Shown piece by piece: positions 14,810-45,931 of a stretch of DNA of 64,000 bases. Location of the stretch: the IMG/VR virus record IMGVR_UViG_3300032123_000052, positions 144,086 through 208,085 of that record. One strand, 5' to 3'. The translations under genes were made by a program, and so were the position numbers. The notes below the pieces were generated by a model, which had not been told where the DNA came from, did no database searches, and saw only the letters and a program-made list of their open reading frames with translations. Position 1 is the first letter of the stretch; each line of letters begins with the position of its first letter. Origin of the DNA: a virus. Its lineage: Duplodnaviria; Caudoviricetes.

Positions 14810-14993
14810 AAGAACTATCCTCCTGAAATTAATTAAAAAATAATTACCTCATCTATAATTGTTATATCAGATTTGTAGATGCAATAACAGCTAAAAAAAA
14901 AGAGGCAAGTTGTTCTGCCTCGATTTTCTACGTTTACAGTACCACGCAATGGCGCAGCTTATAATTCCACCATCGTATGTGAAATGTGTGCTG

Positions 14994-15245
14994 TTACGCT
15001 ATGACCGCATTGATACGCTCATTATTGTCGAGAAGCCACTCTTGACGAAGAGCCGGGCCGTGAATAGCTGCACACTCTTTAAGCAAAGTAATGGCATCAC
15101 TTTCGTTGTTGGTTGATGTGGAGCGTAATGCTGCCTCTACATCAGAAAGTTTGACATACACTGGTACCCCTTCACATTTACCACGCATCATACCATCAAC
15201 AGTATCAGGATAGTATCTAGTAACTTTTTTCAAACTTTTTATCAT
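14994..15245 (-). CDS. hypothetical protein
   Basis: Start MIKSLKK at 15245 behind AAGGAG RBS (track start 15335 overlaps upstream gene). Confidence 0.55.
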   Translation of the reverse strand: MIKSLKKVTRYYPDTVDGMMRGKCEGVPVYVKLSDVEAALRSTSTNNESDAITLLKECAAIHGPALRQEWLLDNNERINAVIA

Positions 15246-15306: not shown

Positions 15307-15558
15307 TTATTGTGTGACGTTTGCTTCGATTCCACCCAAAACGCGGTTTGATTCCACCTTAAACAATGGAAAAGGGCTGGTAGTGTCTACTAACCAATGG
15401 CGGCCACACGGACACCTAGCGATATATACTGTTTTGCCAGAAACACAGTCTACAAAGTCAGGCTCGTGGCCGGTCATAAACCAATGAAGACCTAAATTAC
15501 ATGTTATCATATCACCTCCAATTTTAAAAAAAAATAAATATGTGAAGTGAACGTACAA
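15307..15558 (-). CDS. small Cys-rich protein
   Basis: MITCNLGLHW..DCVSG..RCPCGRHW; true start probably MITC behind GGAGG. Confidence 0.55.
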   Translation of the reverse strand: MYVHFTYLFFFKIGGDMITCNLGLHWFMTGHEPDFVDCVSGKTVYIARCPCGRHWLVDTTSPFPLFKVESNRVLGGIEANVTQ

Positions 15559-15692
15559 CGTTTGCTAAACGGCTGATAGCTGCCGAAGCTGATCAACAAC
15601 CTCGGCAATGTCTTTAATATGATATTTTGCACCATAATGATTTTGGGTTTCTAATACATCTGCGGCCTTGGAAATTTTTGTCTTTAGCTGTT
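15557..15692. repeat. attC-like imperfect palindrome A
   Basis: AAC-GTTTG-CTAAA ... TTTAG-CT-GTT; encloses 3' end of 15565..15894. Confidence 0.45.
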
Positions 15693-15894
15693 TTGTGACC
15701 GTTTCTGTTGATTCCTTATCTAAAATCACAGCGGCTTTATAAGCCGCTTCCACATTGCACTTTTTTTTATGCTTAATATCACTGATGAGCCACGCCTTTT
15801 CTCCACATCCACGACATACCGACAGAATATTGTCGCTATCATAAAGCCATTCACCAAATGCATATTCTATTAATACTTCGACTAATTTGCTCAT
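15565..15894 (-). CDS. hypothetical protein
   Basis: ORF track. Confidence 0.6.
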   Translation of the reverse strand: MSKLVEVLIEYAFGEWLYDSDNILSVCRGCGEKAWLISDIKHKKKCNVEAAYKAAVILDKESTETVTKQLKTKISKAADVLETQNHYGAKYHIKDIAEVVDQLRQLSAV

Positions 15895-34942: not shown

Positions 34943-36445
34943 TTAGCCATCACTTACGACAGCGGGGAGATCGCCAACCGAATGGAATTCCCACCATACT
35001 GATGGGTTCATACCGCTGTTCTTATTTTTCTTTGTGACAATGGGCTTTTCCATGTATAAGATTTGATTTGGGCATTTGGCACTTCGAAAGCCCTTCCCGT
35101 CTTCTGAGTTCCTGAGTTTATAGACACTTATCTGGACATCATCGTTACATAAGCCAAATTCATAGTTTTTTTTGGGCAAGGAAACCCCATCCACTTGTGG
35201 GTGGGGAGGAATTGCCCCCTCCTTGTATAATTTAGATGCTATTAACATTGTATTGCTTGATTCTAATAATTTGAGCTTTCTCCAAACTGCACTTGCATGT
35301 ATCTTGTTGCCGTCTAATTCCCGAATATCAAAATATCCGGTTTTGCGTCTGCCAAAAATAAAACACTCAATATTGTTGTATAAAACCTTATCAAACCTCT
35401 GAAATCCGTGTATAAATCTTTCAGCAGTATTTCTTATATGGCTTCTAATCCCTTTAAATAGTTTTCTATTATTTTTCCGCACTTGTTTTTGTAAATATTG
35501 AGTTTCTTCTCTCTCTTGACCTTCTCCACCTGCTATAACAAATGCATCGTTAATATGACTTTTGGGTATATTGTTTTTAATCCGGTTATTCTTTGTAATA
35601 TATCCATATGTATGATTGACCTGATTCCTAAGTTCTCTTAGTTTGTCTACAATCTTCCACCTGACCATAGACATAAATGTTTCAGCTTTAAATCCATTAG
35701 GCTGTTTTGCTTTAAGTTTGATTTCACCCTTATGATGTTGCTGGTGGCAAGTTTTACACAGAGTAATTAGGTTAGCAGATCTATCACCACCTATCTGTCT
35801 TGACTTAATATGATGTACGTTTAGAATTGGGTCTTTAGATTTACCATTACATGACTGACAAGTATGGTTATCTCTATACAAAACATATTCTCTTGTATTC
35901 CAGAAGCCTAACTTTTCTCCTTGTTGATATTCTGCTCCGGCTATCTCAGGATTCTTAATTCTTTGAATATCAAAAGCAGCTACTTCTACATTAATTTTTG
36001 TGATAGGTAATATTTCCTTAACTCTATCGATTATCTTAATGTGTGAATCAAACTTGTGTTGTATAGAAGGTGCTAACCAACCCTTCTTTTTACTTTTCAC
36101 TCTGTTTAAAAAACGGGGTTGCCTGTACCAGGTTTTTCTACTCCTTCTTGTCCTCCTGCACATTCTTCTTTCTGATATGAGTTTCACAATATCAGTTCTA
36201 AGCTTTACTTCGGATGCAAACAATTCTTTCTTGTCAGTAACAGCAGATAATCCTACATTAGCATATCCACTATCTACACCAAGTATAATAGGCTGTTTAT
36301 AACCACTTGAACCATGGAGCAATTGAATTGTAAACGGTGTTTTCTTCACCACTTTAGCTTTTCCTTCTTTAAGCAATGTTCTTACTTTTCTTGGTCTGCA
36401 TGGCATCAATGGTTTACCATGCTTGTTAATAACAAAAACTAACAA
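34943..36445 (-). CDS. iscB: RNA-guided endonuclease IscB (reads through right end into host-gene C-terminus)
   Basis: PLMP N-terminus, GVDSG (RuvC-I), RRxRR bridge helix, HNH (CQSC..VHHI..N LITLCKTCH..HH), SHINDA (RuvC-III). Confidence 0.95.
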   Translation of the reverse strand: MLVFVINKHGKPLMPCRPRKVRTLLKEGKAKVVKKTPFTIQLLHGSSGYKQPIILGVDSGYANVGLSAVTDKKELFASEVKLRTDIVKLISERRMCRRTRRSRKTWYRQPRFLNRVKSKKKGWLAPSIQHKFDSHIKIIDRVKEILPITKINVEVAAFDIQRIKNPEIAGAEYQQGEKLGFWNTREYVLYRDNHTCQSCNGKSKDPILNVHHIKSRQIGGDRSANLITLCKTCHQQHHKGEIKLKAKQPNGFKAETFMSMVRWKIVDKLRELRNQVNHTYGYITKNNRIKNNIPKSHINDAFVIAGGEGQEREETQYLQKQVRKNNRKLFKGIRSHIRNTAERFIHGFQRFDKVLYNNIECFIFGRRKTGYFDIRELDGNKIHASAVWRKLKLLESSNTMLIASKLYKEGAIPPHPQVDGVSLPKKNYEFGLCNDDVQISVYKLRNSEDGKGFRSAKCPNQILYMEKPIVTKKNKNSGMNPSVWWEFHSVGDLPAVVSDG

Positions 36446-36673
36446 TTAGTTTTTCTCCTTAACAAAGAGTTAGAGCCACATCGGGATTGTTGTAAAGACT
36501 TGTCATGTTGGCCACACCGTTCCTTACCCTCAGAACTTTTAATAACCAACGATAGAGCATGGAGCTTGTGGAGTACTTCAAGGTATCTTGATCTAAACAA
36601 CTTCTGCATAATAATTACGCTCCCTTGTCAACTAAGGCTTCAAGCCTCGCCCCTTGTGGGCGGGGTCGTTGAC
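35164..36673 (-). mobile_element. IscB (IS200/IS605-superfamily) non-autonomous element
   Basis: Left end GTCAAC, omegaRNA, iscB, right-end hairpin GGCAATTCCTCCCC...GGGGTTTCCTTGCC; ATGA immediately 3' of right end; no tnpA. Confidence 0.85.
36446..36673 (-). ncRNA. omegaRNA (HEARO-type) of IscB
   Basis: Starts GTCAACGACCCCGCC, GTCAAC/GTTGAC closing stem, multiple hairpins, directly upstream of iscB. Confidence 0.85.
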
Positions 36674-37160
36674 GCTGCTGTATTTCAATACTCACTGAAT
36701 ATTGCTGATCGTTCGCAGTCTTTATGTCAAGAATGATAATGCTGTCATCCTTTTCCTCAAGAACTATATCTTTATGCACATTTCTCCTTGATAAATTTGT
36801 AAGAAAATATATCTTTATATACCTACCGGATAATCCTCATTCTCACCACTAGCAGCTGGCGACAACGCTATAGCAATAATGATTCCAATAATCGTTACAA
36901 CAAATGCCAAGATTGCTACTTTTTTAAACAATTGAACTCTCCTTTCTTCTGTATATGGTAAAAATTTTTTAATTCTTTAAAACAATCCCTTGTTGGTTGC
37001 AAAGTGTAGGAGGCTGCCCCAATATTATAAATAATGTTTTTACAGCATGTCTAACCCTAGCTATTGGGTACATTATCGGTGTTACTCCCCGTCAATCAAA
37101 CGGAAACATGAAAACCTATAATAGAAAAGCAGTCTCCTATTTCTTACAACAACCAGTTTA

Positions 37161-37373
37161 TCACCACCCAAGTGACTTTGAGATTTTAGGTGTCATTCCA
37201 CCATTTTCTTTGAACTTTTCCACAAAATAATTAAATAAATCTCCATTTCGCTTATCAAAATATGGATGACAAGATGGGGCAAACCGATATAATGATGCCA
37301 TTGAATATTGGGACATATTATCAATATCATTTTTTGCTGCGATAATTTGTTCTTTTGTCATATTTATCTCCAT
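37161..37373 (-). CDS. conserved small phage protein
   Basis: IDNMSQYSMASLYRFAPSCHPYFD motif. Confidence 0.6.
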   Translation of the reverse strand: MEINMTKEQIIAAKNDIDNMSQYSMASLYRFAPSCHPYFDKRNGDLFNYFVEKFKENGGMTPKISKSLGW

Positions 37374-37605
37374 TCAGCCGCAAGCGATTCGAAATGCTCA
37401 TACAAGCTTGTTTTATCTTCCTCAACAGCTTGCACCATATGCTCTTCACAAATAATGTTTTCCTCTTGTGGCGGCTATAACTGGAAATTCGCCTCGGCGT
37501 AAATTATGCCTCTTCAAGGTTTGTGTTCGGCGGGAGAACAGATACCCCCACAAACATACACTTAGTTTGATTTTTCATCAATATTAAATCCCTTTGGCGA
37601 ATGGC

Positions 37606-37782
37606 TTATGAATCAATTCCATCAATCCACCATGTTTTTCCACAGTCCAAACATTTATAATTATAATCTTCATATCCACCACAAGACGATTTCAAAGTAC
37701 GGTATTCAACATTTTTACTTTTACAATCAGGGTTGCGGCATATTGCACGTTCACACTTGATCCATTCTCCATAATCACCCAT
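37606..37782 (-). CDS. zinc-ribbon protein (58 aa, not in track)
   Basis: CRNPDC.S...YKCLDCGKTW; AAGGAG RBS. Confidence 0.6.
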   Translation of the reverse strand: MGDYGEWIKCERAICRNPDCKSKNVEYRTLKSSCGGYEDYNYKCLDCGKTWWIDGIDS

Positions 37783-37842
37783 GCTTTTACTCCTTTAATG
37801 AGCCAAACTATAATTATAATCGGGAAAAATCAAATTTCTCCC

Positions 37843-37896
37843 AACGTTCGATAAATGTTTGACCATTATCTTTACCAATGGCAAACTTTATTTGTT
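37843..37896. repeat. attC-like palindrome E
   Basis: AAC-GTTCG-ATAAA(T)GTTTG(A)CCATT ... AATGG-CAAAC-TTTAT-TT-GTT: 15 bp arms with two extrahelical bases. Confidence 0.65.
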
Positions 37897-37968
37897 ATAA
37901 TATTTATTGAAAGCTTCCATATTATTGCGAAACACGGGTTAATTAAAATTACCGATAATATTTCTCAC

Positions 37969-38019
37969 AACGCCCGATCAGTGTCCATTGTTTCCGACTA
38001 TATTTGGACTTGATTTGCT
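37969..38019. repeat. attC-like palindrome D
   Basis: AAC-GCCCG-ATCAG(T)GTCCA ... TGGAC-TTGAT-TT-GCT; contains stop of 37978..38352. Confidence 0.55.
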
Positions 38020-38352
38020 GGATGTTGTGGAGGATTTACCACTTATAAAGGCGCATTCTTTAGGTATTCCAGGAACCTTTTGATACACCCACCGTTCAAG
38101 CCCATCATACTCTCTTCTATCGCTCCAAGTTCCATCTTTATACCAAATTGTGCCATATAACCTTCGACCGCCAAAACCAGAATCATAATCAAAGTCTAAT
38201 GAATTGATAAACAAATCCATTTCATCATTATTAAAACCAACCGAAAGGATGTAGGACTTTCTATTATCATAACTTTCTTCATGTTCAATTAGCGCACAAA
38301 TCACCGCTTTATTGGCGGATTCCTCTAAAAATTCCTCTTTTGCGTTTTTCAT
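37978..38352 (-). CDS. conserved phage hypothetical protein
   Basis: LDFDYDSGFGGRRLYGTIWYKDGTWSDRREYDG.E.W motif. Confidence 0.7.
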   Translation of the reverse strand: MKNAKEEFLEESANKAVICALIEHEESYDNRKSYILSVGFNNDEMDLFINSLDFDYDSGFGGRRLYGTIWYKDGTWSDRREYDGLERWVYQKVPGIPKECAFISGKSSTTSSKSSPNIVGNNGH

Positions 38353-38672
38353 ATTTTTCCCTTCTTGCTGTTCGCCAAAAGTTCAATATAAAAAGCCTTA
38401 ATTTTTGGCATGAGATATTTATCTCTAACCCTCTCAACAACACAGCAAATTCCGTTGTGATGTTCCTCCCATCTTCGGCAGGAGTCTTCATACAATGTTA
38501 ATAGATCCCAAAACTGATATATATTTTGTGGTGGAGATAGAGCAGCGTCATATTTGAAGAACCAATGCTTCTCTAATTCCTTTTTGGTTTTGGAATATAA
38601 TTTTTTGTCGAAGGAGGAACTTATCGAGGTGATTACGTTTTTTATATTCTTTTTTAATTTTTCTTCATTCAC
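38349..38672 (-). CDS. hypothetical protein
   Basis: ORF track. Confidence 0.55.
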   Translation of the reverse strand: MNEEKLKKNIKNVITSISSSFDKKLYSKTKKELEKHWFFKYDAALSPPQNIYQFWDLLTLYEDSCRRWEEHHNGICCVVERVRDKYLMPKIKAFYIELLANSKKGKI

Positions 38673-38704
38673 ACAATACCCTTTTGATTAATTGTGTACA
38701 ACAT

Positions 38705-38908
38705 TTACAAAAAGAATGACACCACAGAGACACTTCCAATAATTATACACACCCAAAGCACAATAGCTAAGAAAATGCTATCACGACATTGGAATGTCAA
38801 AATCTCGAACAAAGATTCATAATATTTTACAATCCATTTAATCATATAAGCCGCAAAAATTACCAGAAAGATATAGCGAAGCCCATCAAGATAGTCCCAA
38901 ATTCTCAT
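38705..38908 (-). CDS. small two-helix membrane protein
   Basis: Two hydrophobic segments; GAGG RBS. Confidence 0.55.
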   Translation of the reverse strand: MRIWDYLDGLRYIFLVIFAAYMIKWIVKYYESLFEILTFQCRDSIFLAIVLWVCIIIGSVSVVSFFL

Positions 38909-38945
38909 ATAATCCTCTTTCGTAAATTATAATGCCGGTTTTATG

Positions 38946-39659
38946 TTATAGAGATATTTTTATTTTACGCTCTTTGCAAAGAGCGACAAACAATTCGAGC
39001 CCTCGTAGTTTTGGTTTTCCCTTTTTCCACAACGATCTTTTTTCTGCGAAATAAAAATCTCTCATTTGTGTCTTATATTGACATGGACCACCCGTAGCCC
39101 ATGTGTCCATAGCCTTATACCCAATGAATTCAGCATCGTGTCGCATGAGTTCCAGAATCAAACTATCGGACAAAGTGCCCCAAGAAATTTTCAAAATTGT
39201 AGAGATAGAATACCTGGCGTAATTCAGCGAGGCGCCATTAAGCGAGGCACAATTCAGCGATGCCTCAATCAGCGAGACGCGATCCAACAACGCGTCAATC
39301 AGCGATGCCTCAATCAGCGATGCCTCAATCAGCGATGCATCAATCAGCGACGCGCCATTCAGCGATGCGCGATTCAGCGATGTGCGATTCAGCGAGGCAC
39401 AATTCAGCGATGCGCCATTAAGCGAGGCACAATTCAGCGAGGCACAATTCAGCGATGCCTCATTCAGCGATGCGCCATTCAGCGAGGCACAATTCATCGA
39501 TGCCTCATTCAGCGATGCGCCATTCAGCGATGCGCCATTCAACATGGCGTGGGAAAAATTGACACCTTTTGCAACGCCATCTATAAGACATTTTTTTATA
39601 TTTTTTCCTGGAATTGTATGTATTACGTCGTCGTTGTCCCAACGTATAATTTCTGCCAT
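38946..39659 (-). CDS. pentapeptide repeat protein
   Basis: 22 A-S-L-[N/I]-x pentapeptides. Confidence 0.9.
   Translation of the reverse strand: MAEIIRWDNDDVIHTIPGKNIKKCLIDGVAKGVNFSHAMLNGASLNGASLNEASMNCASLNGASLNEASLNCASLNCASLNGASLNCASLNRTSLNRASLNGASLIDASLIEASLIEASLIDALLDRVSLIEASLNCASLNGASLNYARYSISTILKISWGTLSDSLILELMRHDAEFIGYKAMDTWATGGPCQYKTQMRDFYFAEKRSLWKKGKPKLRGLELFVALCKERKIKISL
39219..39548 (-). repeat. 22 x 15-nt tandem repeat (pentapeptide coding)
   Basis: 330 nt of CAGCGA(T/G)GC(C/G)..ATT-type units. Confidence 0.9.
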
Positions 39660-39714
39660 TTTTTTTTACCTTTTGTTAATTGTGATTATTTACCTTTGTT
39701 TGTTGTAAGATGTG

Positions 39715-39951
39715 TCAAATTTTCTCCTTAGAAATCAGCGCAATAAATTTGTCCGCTTCAGCGCGGTCAGTATCCTTTTCGGCGTTGGGTAGTTCTTGAT
39801 ATGATATACGCATCTGCCTAGTCCATCTTTCAACCGCCCAACGAGGCATAGTCCATGTACCATCACTGGTATTAAACGTTCCTTTTTCAAACAAATATTT
39901 CATCCATCCAGACCATTGCTCGTGACACAGTTCAGCAATATTTTCGCGCAT
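39715..39951 (-). CDS. hypothetical protein
   Basis: GGAGG RBS; W-rich. Confidence 0.65.
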   Translation of the reverse strand: MRENIAELCHEQWSGWMKYLFEKGTFNTSDGTWTMPRWAVERWTRQMRISYQELPNAEKDTDRAEADKFIALISKEKI

Positions 39952-39989
39952 ATAACCTCCAGTGAAAAATTTATTTCCCCCAACGTTGA

Positions 39990-40286
39990 TTAGGTGTATT
40001 GTTGTACTATTTTTTCCAGCAAACCGGTTACATCATCAGCATATTTCCCGATACCCATTATATGATTAGTATGATAATACTGGCCGATTTCAGAAAGCAA
40101 TGATTCACTTTGTTTGTTGGTGGAAGTCATTTTTTTTACCTTAGTGTCAGGCTGGCGCTCTGCTTCAACATTGGCAACAGCCTGTTTAAGGGTTGAACCG
40201 CAAGTGCCAACATATTGCACACCATCCTTCCACCATGCATGTCGAGTTAAACCTTCTATAATTCCATCATAATAATTGCCAGCCAT
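39990..40286 (-). CDS. hypothetical protein
   Basis: Start MAGNYY at 40286 behind GGAGG; leader nearly identical to that of 39715..39951. Confidence 0.6.
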   Translation of the reverse strand: MAGNYYDGIIEGLTRHAWWKDGVQYVGTCGSTLKQAVANVEAERQPDTKVKKMTSTNKQSESLLSEIGQYYHTNHIMGIGKYADDVTGLLEKIVQQYT

Positions 40287-40316
40287 ATAACCTCCAGAGA
40301 AAAATTTATTTATACC

Positions 40317-40406
40317 AACATTTGAGAAACGGTTGTCTTGTCCGTGCGCTATAAATAACCGATTTTGCGACTGATTTTCGGTAGGGCATGGCAACCTTTC
40401 TTTGTT
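40317..40406. repeat. attC-like palindrome G
   Basis: AAC-ATTTG-AGAAA(C)GGTTG ... CAACC-TTTCT-TT-GTT. Confidence 0.6.
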
Positions 40407-40509
40407 GTATGTTGATTTTGAAATCTCCGCATTATTCTTTTTTGGCCGTTGTTGCGCTACGCCATTCATTGACGTATGCTAAAATACCATCTGAGGAGTA
40501 AAATGTCTA

Positions 40510-40833
40510 TTAATCCAAACCAAAACACTTGCGGCACAAATAGCCACTTTTAGACGGCTCACCTTCTCCTGGCTCCATTGGTGGCAAAACAATTCCACAG
40601 TTATTACATTTTATTTCTTCACTTTGTTTGTTGTGCGATGGTTTTTCGCTTCCAAATAATTCTTTGCGAATGGTATCACAGGCATCGCTTATAGTGCGAA
40701 AGCAACCGCCTATTTGAACAGACTCCATATCGGAATCCATTGCCAAACCTTCAATTATTCCAAATGCTTCTTTAATATTCATATAAGCAACTCCAATCTC
40801 TAAAAGAAAAACTTTTGACACAACGGTTGACAA
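40510..40833 (-). CDS. hypothetical protein with C-terminal CxxC..CxxC
   Basis: Start probably MNIKEAF; CNNC...CRKC. Confidence 0.55.
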   Translation of the reverse strand: MSTVVSKVFLLEIGVAYMNIKEAFGIIEGLAMDSDMESVQIGGCFRTISDACDTIRKELFGSEKPSHNKQSEEIKCNNCGIVLPPMEPGEGEPSKSGYLCRKCFGLD

Positions 40834-40911
40834 ATGTGTGTCGTTGCGCTATTTATCCCAATAGTATGCAGGGAGCCTACCTTGATAAATCTTCCCGCTT
40901 TAAATTGATAA

Positions 40912-41196
40912 TTATTTCAACCATCCGCGCAACGTGTCAACTATATAACTACCGCTCATTTCCAACCCATTGCGCTTATTTGCGCGATGAACTTTATTTG
41001 CAAATGCGGAAATTTTAACCTTTATCCGCTGTAGGCTGTTAACCGATTCCTTAGATTCCTGAGAATTTTTGTATTGCCATGACACATTTCCGCCAGCACC
41101 AATTACAAGAAAGACTGTGGTTTCTTCATCAAGATCGATACTGATACCTGTTACAACTTTGCCATCCACTCTTGATAATACATCTTTTGCTTTCAT
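40912..41196 (-). CDS. hypothetical protein
   Basis: Start MKAKD at 41196 behind AGGAG. Confidence 0.55.
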   Translation of the reverse strand: MKAKDVLSRVDGKVVTGISIDLDEETTVFLVIGAGGNVSWQYKNSQESKESVNSLQRIKVKISAFANKVHRANKRNGLEMSGSYIVDTLRGWLK

Positions 41197-41232
41197 AAAA
41201 ATTCTCCTATCATTTAAAGGTTGATTGCATAC

Positions 41233-41285
41233 AACGTTCGACGCAATCCCGATACCAGCTTTATCAGTTTTTGGCTGCATTTGTT
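41233..41285. repeat. attC-like palindrome I
   Basis: AAC-GTTCG-ACGCAA(T)CC ... GG-CTGCAT-TT-GTT. Confidence 0.5.
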
Positions 41286-41295
41286 GTGAGATGCA

Positions 41296-41490
41296 TCAAG
41301 CGGTTTCAACTAATTTTTTTAGCGTTGGTTTGAACTTTGGCATAATAATTCCAATAAAACAACCAAGGCCATTCCATCTTTTAATCCTCCAACCACAAGA
41401 ACATTTATCATTGTCGGAGCCATTGCCACCCCTTTCACACTCACTGCACGAGACCCACAATTTTCCCCCTGAATCATAACAACTTCTCAT
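41296..41490 (-). CDS. small Cys-rich protein
   Basis: WVSCSECERG...KCSCGW..GC. Confidence 0.55.
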   Translation of the reverse strand: MRSCYDSGGKLWVSCSECERGGNGSDNDKCSCGWRIKRWNGLGCFIGIIMPKFKPTLKKLVETA

Positions 41491-41557
41491 AACAATTCCT
41501 TTTTTTTTTGCGCCGAAATACAATATGCTTTTTAGTTTGACATTTTACAACGTTCGA

Positions 41558-41842
41558 TCAGGTGTAAAGTTTCCGATATATAAAATTATAAACTCTACGT
41601 ATCACCCCAAGCTCAATAGTATGCTGAACCAAATCTTCAAGTGAATCGAACCTATTACAATTAATATCAACTTCCTCTAATTTAAGAAATTTCATACTTG
41701 ATTTGTTGTCGGATTTTAATTTTTCTGCCGCTAATTTATGAAAATCGCAACATAGCTGACAGCCACAACTGTTACGTATAGCACATATTTTACCCGCAAA
41801 ACACTCACCTCGATTTTTAGGAATTTTCACTATAAGCTCCAA
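41558..41842 (-). CDS. hypothetical protein
   Basis: Cys-rich; stop sits in an attC-like half-site. Confidence 0.55.
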   Translation of the reverse strand: MELIVKIPKNRGECFAGKICAIRNSCGCQLCCDFHKLAAEKLKSDNKSSMKFLKLEEVDINCNRFDSLEDLVQHTIELGVIRRVYNFIYRKLYT

Positions 41843-42197
41843 GAAAAATTATTGAAACCAATGTTCCAGAAACAAATGTCCGTTTTAATGGCATTCTTTC
41901 TGTATCGTGGATGGTGTTGCCCAACCCTTGCAGAAAGATTGCCATGTGCCACAATATTCACAGCCATAGGCGCATGTATCATAATAGTTATAACTGCCGT
42001 TAAATTGGACAACATTTGTTTTATAACAATACTTACAAATGACACTATATTTCCGTTTCATAAACACCGCCTATGATATGTTAAAAAAAAACATTTCTTA
42101 CAAGTGTGTGCGAAGTTATCATTTCTCCATTTCTTTATAAATATGTTTGTAGAAGAATTCGTCTGCGCATTTATCACTGCAGAAATTTATTAATGGG

Positions 42198-42416
42198 TTA
42201 TAAAACTTTACAAAAACCTTCTGACTCCCATTGTGCAATTGCCATGAACTGAGACTTTAATATTTCCATTCCTTTATTACCACATTTACATTCCAATCGA
42301 TACGCACACCCATTGTATGATGAGCCATTATCTCCACAGTATTTTTGAATTTCCGGTATGGTATTGCAAGTTGTACAAAAAACTCTCCCCTTATCATCTA
42401 TTCGTTTCTTATTCAT
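42198..42416 (-). CDS. zinc-ribbon protein
   Basis: CTTC...CKCG. Confidence 0.55.
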   Translation of the reverse strand: MNKKRIDDKGRVFCTTCNTIPEIQKYCGDNGSSYNGCAYRLECKCGNKGMEILKSQFMAIAQWESEGFCKVL

Positions 42417-42471
42417 AAATATTCCTTTTGTAACGAGCCAAACTACAATCGAAAAAAATCAAATTTATCAC

Positions 42472-42541
42472 AACGTTCCGCAAAAAGATGCTGTGGTGTA
42501 AAGGTAGAGGTTGGCTCCATTAATTTTTGCCTTTGTTTGTT
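42472..42541. repeat. attC-like palindrome K
   Basis: AAC-GTTCC-GCAAA ... TTTGT-TT-GTT. Confidence 0.45.
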
Positions 42542-42732
42542 GGGAGATGTGTTTTGGGTTCCTTAATGTAATTTTCCCACCACAGCCGCTTCGTTGCACT
42601 TGAAGGGGGAAACTTTCCATGATAAAAATTGCAAACAGCACAGTCATATAATTCAGGAGCAGAACTATTGCAACATGGACAGAACCCGAGCAGCATCCTA
42701 AGCTTACCTATTAAGATTTTTATTAACTTCAT
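42520..42732 (-). CDS. small zinc-binding protein
   Basis: CPCC..C.VC; GAGG RBS. Confidence 0.55.
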   Translation of the reverse strand: MKLIKILIGKLRMLLGFCPCCNSSAPELYDCAVCNFYHGKFPPSSATKRLWWENYIKEPKTHLPTNKGKN

Positions 42733-42796
42733 GGAAAACTCCTATTATAGTTCATCACAAAACTTATCCATGCTGCTTGCGAGCTATGGCATACTA

Positions 42797-43156
42797 TTAC
42801 TTCTTTAAAAATTGTGCATACATCGCCCGAGTGCGTCCAAGCTCTCCTGCCCAACTCCAGTTATTCATTATCAGGTTTTGAGCCTCATGCTCATCGAGCG
42901 CGATCTTATCCTCACATGATACTTCAAGCATCCTGATCGCACTGTCATACTCTTCCTCATGGCACACTGGAGCTAATAGAGGAACACGTAGAGAATTGTC
43001 GCCACCAGTTTTAAACTTTTCAAGCATCTCTTCCAAAGCTGCAATACCAGCTTCACGGAATTCTTTTTCTGCTTTTTCATACTCATCCAGATGAAGCTGT
43101 TTATTTGTTTTGAGAATGTTAAGCAACTCTACCTTTTCAACAAGAACCTGTTTCAT
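42797..43156 (-). CDS. conserved phage hypothetical protein
   Basis: 119 aa helical; P..H.EEYD.AI.ML motif. Confidence 0.7.
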   Translation of the reverse strand: MKQVLVEKVELLNILKTNKQLHLDEYEKAEKEFREAGIAALEEMLEKFKTGGDNSLRVPLLAPVCHEEEYDSAIRMLEVSCEDKIALDEHEAQNLIMNNWSWAGELGRTRAMYAQFLKK

Positions 43157-43260
43157 ATTACTATTCCTTTCATGATTTTTGCGAGAGGAAACCCCAACCC
43201 ACGTGGTTGTAGTTTACTTATAATATTTTGTACAAAATATCTGGTTTTATAACAGTATTA

Positions 43261-43656
43261 TGGAGGTGGGGACATCCGAGAGTCCCGTCCGTCAACGCCT
43301 TCAACCGAACTTCTACATGCTTAGTTTGTGATTTAATCTTACTGCCATCAGCTTCCACAAACAGAATCAAACGACAGCCAGCTTCTAATTTCACTTATGA
43401 GTCGAAGCGCCATCATAAGCTATGATCCTACGACTACCCGGAGATTACGGACCCATTCCTCCCAAGGTTTGTCATCTTTAATTAGATGACGGCGATGTCC
43501 TGCTTGGTGTTTGCATAACACATAGCGCCAAACATGACATTGAAATCTATATTGGTTTTGCCAATTAGACGTTTATCGGACGATTAGCGAGGCCAACCGA
43601 TAATCCTCGGCATGCAACTCAAATCTTCAAACGTTACGTCGATACCGTTCACCCCC
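43261..43656 (-). ncRNA. ssrA: tmRNA (396 nt)
   Basis: GGGGGTG/CACCTCC-A acceptor with G3.U70; GGTATCGAC D-loop motif; helix 2; pk1 (CGAGG/CCTCG plus TTATCGG/CCGATAA); tag ORF 43562-43482 with stop in the helix-5 loop; GAC + GGGAC/GTCCC T stem. Confidence 0.9.
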
Positions 43657-44424: not shown

Positions 44425-44688
44425 CTATTGGCCTTGTTTATACATTCCTTTTAAAATTTCATCCTCTTTTATCCGTCGGTCTGGAGGGGGAGGTGGTGGC
44501 GGCGGTGGCTTCTGATTTGATGGTTGAGCGGCTGCTTTTTTCAATATTTGAGCGATTATTATTGCTGCTGCGACAATAATTCCCAATACTATCCATCTAG
44601 TTCTACTCATACGGCTATCCCCCCTTTTTTTATTATGGTAAACGGCTGTTTTGTAATAGTCTAACAGAATAACCGCTTCTGTTCTCAC
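44425..44688 (-). CDS. single-pass membrane protein with polyproline tract
   Basis: TM helix then KPPPPPPPPPD; start probably MSRTRW. Confidence 0.55.
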   Translation of the reverse strand: MRTEAVILLDYYKTAVYHNKKRGDSRMSRTRWIVLGIIVAAAIIIAQILKKAAAQPSNQKPPPPPPPPPDRRIKEDEILKGMYKQGQ

Positions 44689-45931
44689 TAATGCCCCTTA
44701 TAATGCGGACACAATCATAATCTAGGCGTTGCACATACGAGTGTGATAATGGTGAGTTCGGACCTTTTGTAGAACTCCACAAACAACAGTTGTACCCAAT
44801 ACGCTGAAACTTACCACTAGGAAAACCACGATAACCCGCAGGAAGCGCTGTAAACATACTTCTATTATTTTTTGACAAATCTGTACCAATAGCTCCGAGG
44901 CCTGTGTCCGGTTCCATCCAATCTGTGTTGGCGGCTAATGATTTTGCTGCCTTATTACCCTCCGTCGTTCCATCCCAGTTGAAACCATTGGTTATTAAAT
45001 AATTATTCAAAGTATCCCACTCTGCGCTTGTTGGTACGTGCCATCCGGTCGGTGCTATTTTTTTTGGATTTTCCGAGTTTACCACATATTGGTTGTATAA
45101 CGCTCCGTACTTTTCTATACTGTCGGAATTGGTTGTATTGTTGTAATAACAGTATGCCGGCGTGGCTAATGTTGACCACACAGTGTCGTTTGTTATCATT
45201 GGTATTGGCGAACCGTCATTATACCTCGTTGCGCGCAGGTTTTTCATCATCCATGTTTGTGTTCCTATTTTTACTGTGTAGTACGCATTGCCATCTATAT
45301 CAACCACCATGTTAGGGCAGATTGTTAATTGTATGTTCATATCGTTTATATTTGTGCTTGTTATTGTTACTTGGTGATCAAAATACCCATCTTTAACAAT
45401 TTTTATAACTTCATCAGTTGATGTACAGCTTGCTGTAGCTATTGAGCTATTCGCGCTTACTGCTGTACTAGTTAATGCCCTACTGATAGAGTTATTCTTT
45501 AATACAAATTTATTATTACCAATTTTAATCTGATAGAAATAAATACCGACCCCTACACGCGGCAATGCTATTGAGCGCGTTCCAGCATTAATTGTTTTTC
45601 TTATTTCAGAAACAATTCTTCCCTGAGGTGTGTATACAACCACCTCTATCAATAATTCTTTCTGAACATTTACGAACAAAAAGCCATTAAATATCTCTAC
45701 AACATGTGTATAAGAAAGAGATTGTTTAATCTGATTACCTGTTATAACATCAGTAATCAAAAATTCTCCGTTCATTCCCGTAGTATCATTTAATCCAAAG
45801 CCTTCTAATATTACATTAGCACCGACTACAGGCATGCCACTTGTATCTGTTACGATACCGCTGATATTTATATTCTGGGCAATACATATGGATATAAACA
45901 TCAATCCTGTTAATAATGTTTTGATAGTCAT
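44633..45931 (-). CDS. secreted protein with Fibrobacter succinogenes major paralogous domain (Fib_succ_major)
   Basis: Signal peptide, ISGIVTD..G.PVVGANV beta-sandwich, then DIDGNAYYTVKIGTQTWMMKNLR..YND...YGALYN...APTGWHVPT.AEW...FTALPAGYR...WSST...GYSVR. Confidence 0.85.
   Translation of the reverse strand: MTIKTLLTGLMFISICIAQNINISGIVTDTSGMPVVGANVILEGFGLNDTTGMNGEFLITDVITGNQIKQSLSYTHVVEIFNGFLFVNVQKELLIEVVVYTPQGRIVSEIRKTINAGTRSIALPRVGVGIYFYQIKIGNNKFVLKNNSISRALTSTAVSANSSIATASCTSTDEVIKIVKDGYFDHQVTITSTNINDMNIQLTICPNMVVDIDGNAYYTVKIGTQTWMMKNLRATRYNDGSPIPMITNDTVWSTLATPAYCYYNNTTNSDSIEKYGALYNQYVVNSENPKKIAPTGWHVPTSAEWDTLNNYLITNGFNWDGTTEGNKAAKSLAANTDWMEPDTGLGAIGTDLSKNNRSMFTALPAGYRGFPSGKFQRIGYNCCLWSSTKGPNSPLSHSYVQRLDYDCVRIIRGISENRSGYSVRLLQNSRLP

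What the first reader, a model, noticed from the sequence alone, without database searches (positions are those of the whole stretch)
37843..42541. Dispersed attC-like palindromes at accessory-gene boundaries: an integron-like cassette system without an integrase?
Seen: at least six elements share a fixed layout on the + strand: AAC, 5 nt, arm with extrahelical base(s), variable loop, complementary arm, 2 nt, GTT. They are at 37843-37896 (15 bp arms, two bulged bases), 37969-38019, 40317-40406, 41233-41285, 42472-42541 and 15557-15692, with degenerate or half copies at 39982, 40822 and 41549. All have the same orientation relative to transcription, lie at or across small-gene boundaries, and often contain the upstream stop codon. 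Arm sequences differ while pairing is kept. Established: integron attC sites are structure-defined ssDNA hairpins with AAC/GTT cores and extrahelical bases. The 5-versus-2 spacer asymmetry differs from classical attC, and no tyrosine recombinase is in the window. Inference: a cassette capture/shuffling system feeding the phage accessory genome.
Basis: partly seen in the sequence, partly recalled or inferred. Interest (0 to 1): 0.75.

Follow-up and report, generated by a model that had tools for sequence, protein, structure and literature searches.

The report
attC-like hairpins punctuating phage gene cassettes
A 6-kb accessory island of a 208-kb marine-sediment phage has a conserved DNA hairpin after almost every small gene; the hairpin is built like an integron attC recombination site, recurs in unrelated phages and in Fibrobacterota genomes, and marks the points where genes and protein domains have been swapped.

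Summary
A covariance model built here (R1) finds seven copies in the whole 208-kb genome. All lie on the minus strand within window 37833-42551.

The same family forms arrays of 2-7 copies in at least six unrelated phage contigs. One to five copies occur in 9 of 151 Fibrobacterota genomes searched.

The architecture is an outer inverted repeat (CATCTCCCAAC / GTTGGGAGAAAT), a 2-versus-5-nt unpaired spacer, a 6-bp stem with compensatory changes, one bulged base and a variable top of 20-110 nt. In the long forms the top encodes the last ~40 residues of the upstream gene.

The strand complementary to the mRNA folds better (97 G·T pairs versus 29). Real Fibrobacterota attC sites show the same bias. 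Mosaic junctions between phages fall at the two halves of the element.

No recombinase is present in any of the phages, and no copy lies beside 24 host intI genes.

Best reading (0.42): an attC-type single-strand recombination site, a deviant integrase-less cassette array (CALIN). The recombination mechanism is not shown. The closest rival is PeSL-like homologous shuffling.

The scan noted this same stretch once before, from another window.

The parts
36780..42796 (-). Accessory island of about 16 small minus-strand genes. It lies between the conserved 119-aa gene (43156..42797) and the conserved ORF interrupted by IscB.
   Evidence: tblastn against relatives L001, L002 and L005: the flanking genes are conserved and none of the island genes is. 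The gap is 463 nt in L002 and about 1.8 kb in L005.
42462..42551 (-). Element E5. Its 5' half encodes the last residues of g42732..42520, and the stop codon lies inside. It carries a 22-nt insertion before its 3' half.
   Evidence: R1 36.9 bits. The interior is homologous to copies L073:1772-1843 and L099:10121-10194.
41850..41918 (-). Weak, diverged copy at the 3' end of g42067..41885.
   Evidence: R1 24 bits, E 0.01.
41541..41717 (-). Long form. The 5' half lies in frame in g41842..41558 (linker DNKSS), the loop encodes the C-terminal ~50 aa, and the 3' half abuts the stop codon.
   Evidence: R1 18.3 bits, E 0.17. The motifs are seen directly. The 5' half is homologous to that of an L007 gene.
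41223..41295 (-). Element E4, directly after the stop of g41490..41296. The inner hairpin is weak and the outer stem is longer.
   Evidence: R1 33.2 bits; folds.
40812..40850 (-). Solo 3' half (around 40822) upstream of g40782.
   Evidence: Sequence homologous to the 3' halves of G003 long forms. R1 11.5 bits, not significant.
40620..40643 (-). Solo 5' half, in frame in g40782..40510 (linker SHNKQSE). It is the junction between the N- and C-terminal modules.
   Evidence: The G003 gene L099:7128-7457 shares the N-module up to this motif and then continues with the C-module of g40286.
40307..40416 (-). Element E3, intergenic, with a long branched top. Its stem has the compensated variant AGAAAG/TTTCT.
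   Evidence: R1 59 bits. Antisense fold -29.8 against -18.1 kcal/mol for the sense strand.
39972..40123 (-). Long form. The 5' half lies in frame in g40286..39990 (linker STNKQSE), the loop encodes the C-terminal 45 aa, and the 3' half abuts the stop.
   Evidence: R1 partial hit at 39972-40013, 26.1 bits. Homologues P0002 and P0003 share the N-domain up to this linker and then differ.
39692..39715 (-). Solo 5' half immediately after the stop of g39951..39715.
   Evidence: 27 nt at 89% identity to the 5' half of E5.
37959..38029 (-). Element E2, over the 3' end and stop codon of g38352..37978.
   Evidence: R1 34.4 bits.
37833..37906 (-). Element E1, the best copy. It is intergenic, has 15-bp arms with bulges, and lies upstream of g37782.
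   Evidence: R1 68.6 bits, E 2e-12; folds.
37783..37849 (-). Shared leader that starts at the 3' half of E1 and runs to the ribosome-binding site. It is homologous to 42417-42478, which sits in front of an unrelated gene.
   Evidence: Direct repeats D8 and D14; blastn.
15550..15702 (-). It has similar geometry but is not a significant member.
   Evidence: R1 11.9 bits, E 4.1. It is not among the PWM hits.

Best explanation
The elements belong to a previously undescribed family of structured DNA sites. Each is an imperfect hairpin of 50-165 nt.

The base of the hairpin is conserved. It has an outer inverted repeat ending in AAC...GTT, an unpaired spacer of 2 nt on one side and 5 nt on the other, and a 6-bp stem followed by one extrahelical base. 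The top is free to vary.

One copy sits at the 3' end of nearly every small gene of the accessory island, always co-directional with the gene. The fold under selection is on the strand complementary to the mRNA.

Most likely they work like integron attC sites. Folded bottom-strand hairpins would serve as recombination sites that delimit exchangeable units, and the island would be an array of cassettes without an integrase (CALIN-like).

Because the 5' half of the hairpin often lies inside the ORF, as a conserved linker (PNKQS-type), and the loop can encode the C-terminal ~40 residues, exchange at the two halves shuffles whole genes and also N- and C-terminal protein modules.

Shown: the family, its structure, the strand bias, its spread, and the coincidence with mosaic junctions.

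Inferred: that the exchange is site-specific, and that the recombinase comes in trans, for example from the integron integrases common in the probable host phylum Fibrobacterota.
For: Structure:
- The consensus has compensatory changes. On 39 copies, 95.1% of cells are paired and no shuffle of 500 reaches the observed values.

Distribution:
- Seven copies lie on one strand within 4.7 kb, and none lies elsewhere in the 208 kb.
- The same family forms arrays in unrelated phages: G003 six or seven copies in 3 kb, G004 four, G006 four, G005 three, G007 two, G001 three.
- It occurs in 9 of 151 Fibrobacterota genomes, including all four genomes of one family.
- Every phage copy checked and all 14 host copies follow a co-oriented gene.

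Strand bias:
- In 28 short copies the antisense strand is more stable in 24.
- The mean energy difference is -6.1 kcal/mol, against -2.3 expected from composition (Wilcoxon p 4e-6).
- There are 97 G·T pairs on the antisense strand and 29 on the sense strand (p 9e-10).
- Real attC arrays beside Fibrobacterota intI genes show the same direction, 57 versus 29.
- attC bottom-strand preference, extrahelical bases, the unpaired spacer and the variable top are the defining attC features according to PMC6393395.

Link to integrons:
- Real Fibrobacterota attC R boxes are GCCCAAC/GTTGGGC, the same core as CCCAAC/GTTGGG here.
- Integron integrases score above the curated cut-off in 53 of 296 Fibrobacterota genomes. 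That includes 5 of the 9 genomes that hold copies.

Junctions:
- One G003 gene equals the N-module of g40782 plus the C-module of g40286, joined at the 5' half.
- P0002 and P0003 are identical up to the linker and unrelated after it.
- Shared leaders start at the 3' half.
- A host copy and a phage copy are 90.6% identical over exactly CAAC..GTTG, with unrelated flanks.
- Contigs from the same habitat carry island modules in other orders, with pieces ending at the halves.

Precedent: attC clusters without an integrase occur in virulent phages, and IntI1 recombines them (PMC9892861).
Against: - No integrase is present in this phage or in five other element-bearing phages.
- R1 finds no copy within 234 kb around 24 host intI genes, so these are not the attC sites of the host integrons examined.
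- The spacer geometry (2 versus 5 nt) departs from the roughly 5/5 of canonical attC sites.
- The inner stem is conserved in sequence.
- Integron-type exchange predicts junctions at the 3' core only, yet many junctions lie at the 5' half.
- In the 91%-identical pair, identity decays over about 25 nt before the 5' half.
- A variant in the source sample has what looks like a staggered hybrid junction. Both of these last two fit homology-driven exchange better.
- The attC covariance models of IntegronFinder and HattCI could not be run.
Confidence: 0.42

Rival explanations
1. PeSL-like junction elements. The hairpin is a regulatory signal shared by phages of one host group. It is conserved for that function, and its conserved halves merely offer short homologies where the general phage recombination machinery swaps modules. 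No site-specific enzyme is involved.
For: - The same pattern was described for T4-type phages: conserved intergenic cassettes flanking ORFans in hyperplastic regions, chimeric cassettes, mini-circles and no recombinase (PMC2839356, PMC4122927).
- Junctions occur at both halves and also at the ribosome-binding site.
- Identity decays before the 5' half in one pair.
- There is a staggered hybrid junction in the source sample.
- No recombinase is present in any of the phages.
Against: - PeSLs are defined by a sigma-70 promoter plus a GC-rich terminator stem. Neither is found in these elements. Canonical promoters and terminators occur elsewhere in the same contigs.
- A signal acting in the genes' own mRNA should fold on the sense strand, but selection favours the antisense strand.
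- Long forms with 100-nt coding loops and low-copy host chromosomal copies are hard to explain as phage regulatory signals.
Confidence: 0.25
2. A small mobile palindromic element, REP-, MITE- or IS200/IS605-end-like, moved as single-stranded DNA by a host HUH (Y1) transposase. It would insert after genes and afterwards serve as a recombination hot spot.
For: - The fold is strand-specific.
- A host copy and a phage copy are 90.6% identical over exactly the hairpin, with unrelated flanks.
- The element is sporadic and low-copy in hosts, often in defence or mobile islands near tyrosine-recombinase genes or fragments, toxin-antitoxin pairs and restriction-modification genes.
- The host MAG encodes Y1_Tnp proteins.
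- An IscB/omega-RNA element lies beside the island.
Against: - The interiors differ almost completely between copies, unlike MITE or REP families.
- There are only about 5 copies in a 3.6-Mb host genome.
- No Y1 transposase is present in the phage.
- No target-site duplication or empty site could be found.
- Long forms carry coding sequence in the loop.
Confidence: 0.12
3. An RNA-level element read from the antisense strand. It would act as an intrinsic terminator or insulator that stops transcription entering the early genes from the opposite direction, or as a bidirectional attenuator.
For: - On the antisense strand the hairpin has many G·U pairs and is followed by, or includes, a U-rich run (TTTGTTTGTTG), with an A-rich run before it.
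- Plus-strand genes at 27.7-33.2 kb point towards the island.
Against: - The simple terminator scan flags none of the elements.
- Long forms have 100-nt loops.
- The outer inverted repeat, the AACGTT core and the bulge are conserved in sequence across unrelated phages and hosts, which terminators do not need.
- A terminator against the genes after every single gene has no obvious rationale.
- In hosts the copies mostly lie between tandem, not convergent, genes.
Confidence: 0.1

Closest known systems
Integron attC sites, and clusters of attC sites lacking an integrase (CALINs), including those reported in virulent phages (Qi et al. 2023, PMC9892861)
   Same: - A structure-defined hairpin with AAC/GTT inverted cores.
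- An unpaired spacer, extrahelical base(s) and a variable top; total length 50-165 nt.
- Placed at the 3' end of co-oriented small genes in arrays.
- The bottom strand folds better.
- No integrase in the phage.
- The R-box core CCCAAC/GTTGGG is as in real Fibrobacterota attC sites.
   Different: - The spacer is 2 versus 5 nt instead of about 5/5.
- The inner stem (ACAAAG/CTTTGT) is conserved in sequence.
- The 5' half is often a coding linker, and the loop can encode a C-terminal domain.
- Junctions also occur at the 5' half.
- No copy lies beside any of 24 host intI genes.
- The elements were not tested with the attC models or with an integrase.
PeSLs (promoter-early stem-loops) of T4-type phages (Arbiol et al. 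2010, PMC2839356; Comeau et al. 2014, PMC4122927)
   Same: - Conserved composite motifs between small ORFan genes in a hyperplastic region.
- Module exchange at the motifs.
- No dedicated recombinase.
- Leaders and ribosome-binding sites shared by unrelated genes.
   Different: - No sigma-70 promoter and no GC-rich terminator stem with a T run.
- Selection is on the antisense-strand fold.
- The family is shared by unrelated phages and by host chromosomes.
- The hairpin can enclose coding sequence.
REP elements with RAYT transposases, and IS200/IS605 hairpin ends
   Same: Strand-specific imperfect DNA hairpins with conserved flanking bases, located after genes.
   Different: Low copy number, variable interiors and no associated Y1 transposase in the phages.
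Hairpin promoters of phage N4 virion RNA polymerase
   Same: A hairpin on the template strand, just upstream of early genes.
   Different: N4 hairpins are 5-7 bp with 3-nt loops and few in number. Here the hairpins are large, variable, confined to one 5-kb island, and also present in host chromosomes. This comparison rests on general knowledge and was not tested.

Membership tests
integron attC site | Inverted core sites with conserved 5'-AAC ... GTT-3' that pair (R''/R') | tested here: met
   The four outer pairs CAAC/GTTG are kept in 98.7% of cells over 39 copies.
integron attC site | Core consensus RYYYAAC / GTTRRRY | tested here: inconclusive
   Some copies read TCCCAAC/GTTGGGA, close to the real Fibrobacterota GCCCAAC/GTTGGGC. 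Others read CACAAC/GTTGTG or TACAAC/GTTGTA.
integron attC site | Unpaired central spacer of similar length (about 5 nt) on both arms | tested here: not met
   The spacer is 2 nt on the 5' arm and 4-5 nt on the 3' arm in all aligned copies. Real host attC sites have 5/5.
integron attC site | Second paired box with extrahelical base(s) | tested here: met
   A conserved 1-nt bulge lies after the 5-6-bp stem. On the bottom strand there is a 2-3-nt bulge plus a 1-nt bulge on the same arm.
integron attC site | Variable terminal structure; total length about 57-141 nt | tested here: met
   Copies are 50-103 nt (short forms) and 133-166 nt (long forms).
integron attC site | The bottom strand (complementary to the cassette mRNA) is the better-folding, recombining strand | tested here: met
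   Folding only. The antisense strand is more stable in 24 of 28 copies, with 97 G·T pairs against 29. The positive control on real attC arrays gives 57 against 29. Recombination itself was not tested.
integron attC site | Detected by the attC covariance model (IntegronFinder) or HattCI | not testable with these tools
   Neither model is available here. Rfam has no match in the region.
integron attC site | Found in arrays next to intI/attI, and recombined by IntI at G|TT | tested here: not met
   There is no PF00589 hit in G000 or in five other phages. R1 gives no hit within 234 kb around 24 intI loci.
CALIN (cluster of attC sites lacking an integrase) | Two or more attC sites close together with no integrase nearby | tested here: inconclusive
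   The array and the absence of an integrase are shown. Whether the sites count as attC is the open point.
PeSL | Sigma-70 consensus early promoter within the motif | tested here: not met
   No promoter-like site lies in the stretches between the 3' half and the start codon on the minus strand. In some copies the 3' half is only 3-30 nt from the start codon.
PeSL | GC-rich stem-loop acting as terminator of the genes' transcripts | tested here: not met
   No terminator-like hit falls at any element. The sense-strand fold is the weaker one.
PeSL | Flanks ORFans in hyperplastic regions and marks indel or replacement junctions | tested here: met
REP/RAYT or IS200/IS605-derived hairpin repeats | Many near-identical copies per genome and an associated Y1 (HUH) transposase | tested here: not met
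   The interiors differ between copies. There are 5 copies in the 3.6-Mb host MAG and no PF01797 hit in the phage.
intrinsic terminator | Stable hairpin followed by a U run on the transcribed strand | tested here: not met
   On the sense strand the hairpin is followed by ATCGAACGTTG. A T-rich run exists only on the antisense strand.

The most novel reading that the evidence does not exclude
An integrase-less, attC-type single-strand recombination system circulates among phages of Fibrobacterota and their hosts. It is served in trans by host integron integrases or by an unknown enzyme. Its hairpin straddles the 3' part of genes, so that site-specific exchange shuffles whole small genes and also N- and C-terminal protein domains, with the hairpin loop encoding a domain and the 5' core a linker.
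Probability: 0.25. Interest if true: 0.85.

Novelty: new variant of a known kind. Interest (0 to 1): 0.66.

Why it matters
How phages assemble and renew their sets of small early or accessory genes is a long-standing question. Those sets include host-takeover and anti-defence candidates. This locus offers a concrete, testable handle on it.

The handle is a sequence-and-structure-defined element with a working covariance model. Dozens of natural copies are known in unrelated phages and in the probable host phylum, and recombinant genes exist whose joints lie at the element.

If the sites are integrase substrates, integron biology would extend to lytic phages of a poorly studied phylum and to domain-level shuffling.

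If they are not, then a conserved hairpin on the template strand at gene ends needs another explanation. That explanation would itself be new.

Tried and rejected
- **GenBank phage comparison.** Only a short T5-like match to g38352; no close relative.
- **Relatives of the 432-aa protein in IMG/VR.** None found.
- **Relatives L001, L002 and L003-L005.** At 58-64% protein identity they are too distant to map breakpoints, and they carry no copies.
- **Exact pattern scans of single halves.** Mostly single hits that look like chance (L006, L008-L012, L019-L032). Only L007 proved real.
- **Gapped pattern scan.** 60 hits, of which about 10 were real after scoring.
- **PWM of the 3' half over the genome.** Nothing beyond the island.
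- **Coding conservation of the short forms.** Rejected: the reading frames differ at the 3' half between copies (reasoned).
- **The 3' half as a promoter -35 or -10 element.** Rejected: its distance to the start codon ranges from 3 to 59 nt.
- **Pfam and PHROG searches of ten island proteins.** Uninformative, apart from phrog_3972 for g38352.
- **Search for an empty site at the host locus.** No synteny downstream of the epimerase gene.
- **attC-like repeats beside intI in the element-bearing host family.** The cassette side is off the contig, so nothing usable.
- **Public sequencing runs.** Only contigs of the source sample and two other samples of one study (X5, X6) were available, with no raw reads. 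No deletion or circle junctions could be assessed. The branches and rearranged pieces seen are from other genomes.
- **N4-type hairpin promoter.** Considered and set aside; see Closest known systems.
- **Not attempted.** No structure prediction or complex prediction was run.

Full report
**Setting**

The window is the last 64 kb of a single-contig virus record of 208,085 bp, which CheckV rates 100% complete. It comes from marine sediment.

Between 34.9 and 45.9 kb all genes run on the minus strand.

The stretch in question lies between two conserved genes. These are a 119-aa gene (43156..42797) and an ORF interrupted by an IscB/omega-RNA element. Rfam finds HEARO at 36469-36673, and a tmRNA at 43258-43656.

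In the only relatives found, the two flanking genes are present but none of the roughly 16 small island genes is. The relatives are L001 and L002 from IMG/VR and L003-L005 from metagenomes, at 58-64% protein identity. The gap between the flanking genes is 463 nt in L002 and about 1.8 kb in L005, against 6 kb here. The island is therefore accessory and hypervariable.

**What the elements are made of**

- a 5' half, (A)CATCT-YM-CAAC-AA-ACAAAG;
- a 3' half, C-(A)-TTTGT-CRAAC-GTTG-KGAGAAAT.

The outer parts are inverted repeats of each other: the reverse complement of CATCTCCCAAC is GTTGGGAGATG.

The inner parts ACAAAG and CTTTGT pair with each other. The spacer is 2 nt on the 5' arm and 5 nt on the 3' arm, and one base is bulged after the conserved stem.

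A weight matrix of the 3' half finds eight sites. All are in the island and all on the minus strand, at 17-26 bits. The rest of the genome stays at the level of shuffled sequence.

**The family exists elsewhere**

Pattern scans of IMG/VR led first to L007, a 48-kb phage with terminal repeats. It has three tandem small genes. Each carries the 5' half in frame as a linker (IPNKSS, SPNKQRD, IPNTTKA) and the 3' half just after its stop codon, 133-137 nt later.

A gapped pattern then retrieved short forms in further phage contigs.

Eleven copies were aligned. RNAalifold returned the expected structure of 13 pairs, 6 of them with compensatory changes, and this alignment became covariance model R1.

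Copies found by R1 in other phages:

| Phage record | Size / completeness | Copies | Position |
|---|---|---|---|
| G003 | 50 kb, 100% complete | 6-7 | within 3 kb |
| G004 | 40 kb | 4 | not recorded |
| G006 | 52 kb | 4 | not recorded |
| G005 | not recorded | 3 | not recorded |
| G007 | not recorded | 2 | not recorded |
| G001 | 48 kb | 3 | not recorded |

Within each phage the copies are all on one strand.

In the window, with filters off, R1 gives seven matches at E <= 0.01. All are on the minus strand within 37833-42551, and there are none in the other 144 kb of the genome.

On 39 copies, 95.1% of the cells of the 13 pairs are standard pairs. Shuffles give 77.1%, and sliding the partners gives 25-43%. 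There are 86 doubly changed cells against 21 in shuffles, and no shuffle of 500 reaches either observed value. The alignment was fitted to the model, which favours the structure. The independent RNAalifold result and single-sequence MFE folds agree with it.

Rfam has no family for these elements.

**Short and long forms**

Short forms are 50-103 nt and are intergenic or overlap a stop codon.

Long forms are 133-166 nt. They keep the same base, with up to 17-20 long-range pairs in the G003 copies. The loop encodes the last 35-50 residues of the upstream gene, and the 5' half is translated as a linker.

In the window the long forms are 41541-41717 (gene 41842..41558) and 39972-40123 (gene 40286..39990).

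Solo halves also occur. They are the 5' halves at 40620-40643 and 39692-39715 and the 3' half near 40822.

**Orientation and strand**

Every phage copy checked, and all 14 host copies, lie just downstream of a co-oriented gene.

Yet the strand that folds best is the complement of the mRNA. In 28 short copies the antisense strand is the more stable in 24. The mean difference is -6.1 kcal/mol, where composition alone predicts -2.3 (Wilcoxon p 4e-6). The predicted helices contain 97 G·T pairs on the antisense strand against 29 on the sense strand, with equal numbers of Watson-Crick pairs (binomial p 9e-10).

On that strand the hairpin is nearly continuous, with a 2-3-nt bulge and a 1-nt bulge on the same arm.

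This argues against a signal acting in the genes' own transcripts. It matches attC sites, whose bottom strand is the recombining one. According to PMC6393395, attC sites are defined by extrahelical bases, an unpaired central spacer and a variable terminal structure.

As a control, attC arrays were examined beside bona fide integron-integrase genes of Fibrobacterota. They show the same direction of bias: 57 G·T pairs against 29, and a summed energy of -748 against -632 kcal/mol. Those arrays contain many near-identical repeats, so the control is not made of independent copies.

**Host link**

The only hit in the prokaryote collection is a Fibrobacterota MAG. That MAG holds five copies on five contigs.

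Nine of 151 Fibrobacterota genomes have 1-4 copies, among them all four genomes of that MAG's family.

The host copies lie after ordinary or accessory genes. Their neighbours include toxin-antitoxin pairs, restriction-modification genes, a methyltransferase and tyrosine-recombinase genes or fragments.

Integron integrases (TIGR02249, above the curated cut-off) occur in 53 of 296 Fibrobacterota genomes. That includes 5 of the 9 genomes with copies.

Their attC sites have R boxes GCCCAAC/GTTGGGC, the same core as CCCAAC/GTTGGG in many copies here.

However, R1 finds nothing within 234 kb around 24 intI loci. The phages carry no tyrosine recombinase, and the window's own genome was also searched for a serine recombinase and a Y1 transposase, with no hit.

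**Breakpoints**

- Homologues of gene 40286 keep a 45-residue N-terminal domain and carry unrelated C-terminal parts. P0002 and P0003 are identical up to the linker IPSPN and unrelated after it.
- A G003 gene (L099:7128-7457) aligns with gene 40782 from the upstream 3' half to the 5' half. From the 5' half to the stop it aligns with gene 40286.
- Leaders that begin at the 3' half are shared by unrelated genes, for example 37783-37849 with 42417-42478 and 39949-39987 with 40284-40322. The same leaders appear in L033.
- A host copy and a phage copy are 90.6% identical over exactly CAAC..GTTG, with unrelated flanks.
- Contigs of the same habitat hold island modules in other orders, with pieces ending at the halves. 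The assembly graph of the source sample branches at 40290-40328.

Against strict site-specificity, identity in the 91% pair decays over about 25 nt before the 5' half. One variant junction also looks staggered.

**Weighing the explanations**

Shown here are the structure, the bottom-strand bias, the array organisation (gene plus a 3' hairpin), the spread between phages and hosts, and the junctions. All of these fit an attC-type recombination site.

Integrase-less attC clusters are already documented in virulent phages, with proof of IntI1 recombination (PMC9892861).

Several points prevent filing the elements as attC sites. The spacer geometry is deviant, the inner stem is conserved in sequence, junctions occur at the 5' half, and no copy lies in a host integron.

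I put 0.42 on 'works like attC', that is, on a single-strand, structure-specific recombination site. About 0.25 of that is for use by integron integrases.

The PeSL model explains the mosaicism without an enzyme. It does not explain selection on the antisense fold, the long forms or the host copies, and I give it 0.25. A mobile hairpin moved by a HUH enzyme gets 0.12, and an antisense terminator or insulator gets 0.10.

**Novelty**

The kind is known, either as attC/CALIN in phages or as junction cassettes such as PeSLs.

This family is new in several respects: its geometry, its use as a coding linker with a domain-encoding loop, and its circulation among Fibrobacterota phages and hosts. I class it as a new variant of a known kind.

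Noticed in passing
window 43258-43656 (-): A phage-encoded tmRNA (Rfam RF00023, 118.7 bits) sits in a 273-nt 'intergenic' gap. It is conserved in position in the relatives L001 and L002.
   Followed up: partly
window 34943-36673 (-): An IscB-like HNH protein (500 aa) with its HEARO/omega-RNA (RF02033, 113.7 bits). Its last ~85 residues match a separate small gene in relatives. This suggests an insertion into that gene, right at the edge of the island.
   Followed up: partly
window 36990-37177: Part of a 229-nt 'intergenic' stretch is conserved with phage G003 (L099:8161-8375) at 65-71% when translated. It may be an unannotated small gene or an RNA shared between otherwise unrelated phages.
   Followed up: no
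window 39192-39586: About 25 tandem 15-nt units encode a pentapeptide-repeat protein (gene 39659..38946, 237 aa) inside the island.
   Followed up: no
window 44633-45931 (-): A 432-aa secreted protein whose C-terminal part looks, by eye, like the Fibrobacter 'major paralogous domain'. Together with the MAG hit this points to a Fibrobacterota host.
   Followed up: partly
window 37978-38352 (-): A 124-aa gene (phrog_3972) is 70-73% identical at the DNA level to hypothetical genes of T5-like coliphages and Salmonella phages. This is a distant horizontal link.
   Followed up: no
window 14962-15120 and 15550-15702 (-): Two sub-threshold R1 matches (19.2 and 11.9 bits) in another run of small minus-strand genes. 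They may be decayed members of the family.
   Followed up: partly
L143:301-7522; L141:623-3924: Clear integron cassette arrays with 126-131-nt attC repeats beside intI in Fibrobacterota genomes. Integron integrases score above the curated cut-off in 53 of 296 genomes of the phylum.
   Followed up: partly
window 40290-40328: The unitig graph of the source sample branches here. A second genome in the same sediment shares the leader of gene 40286 and then continues into a different hairpin.
   Followed up: partly
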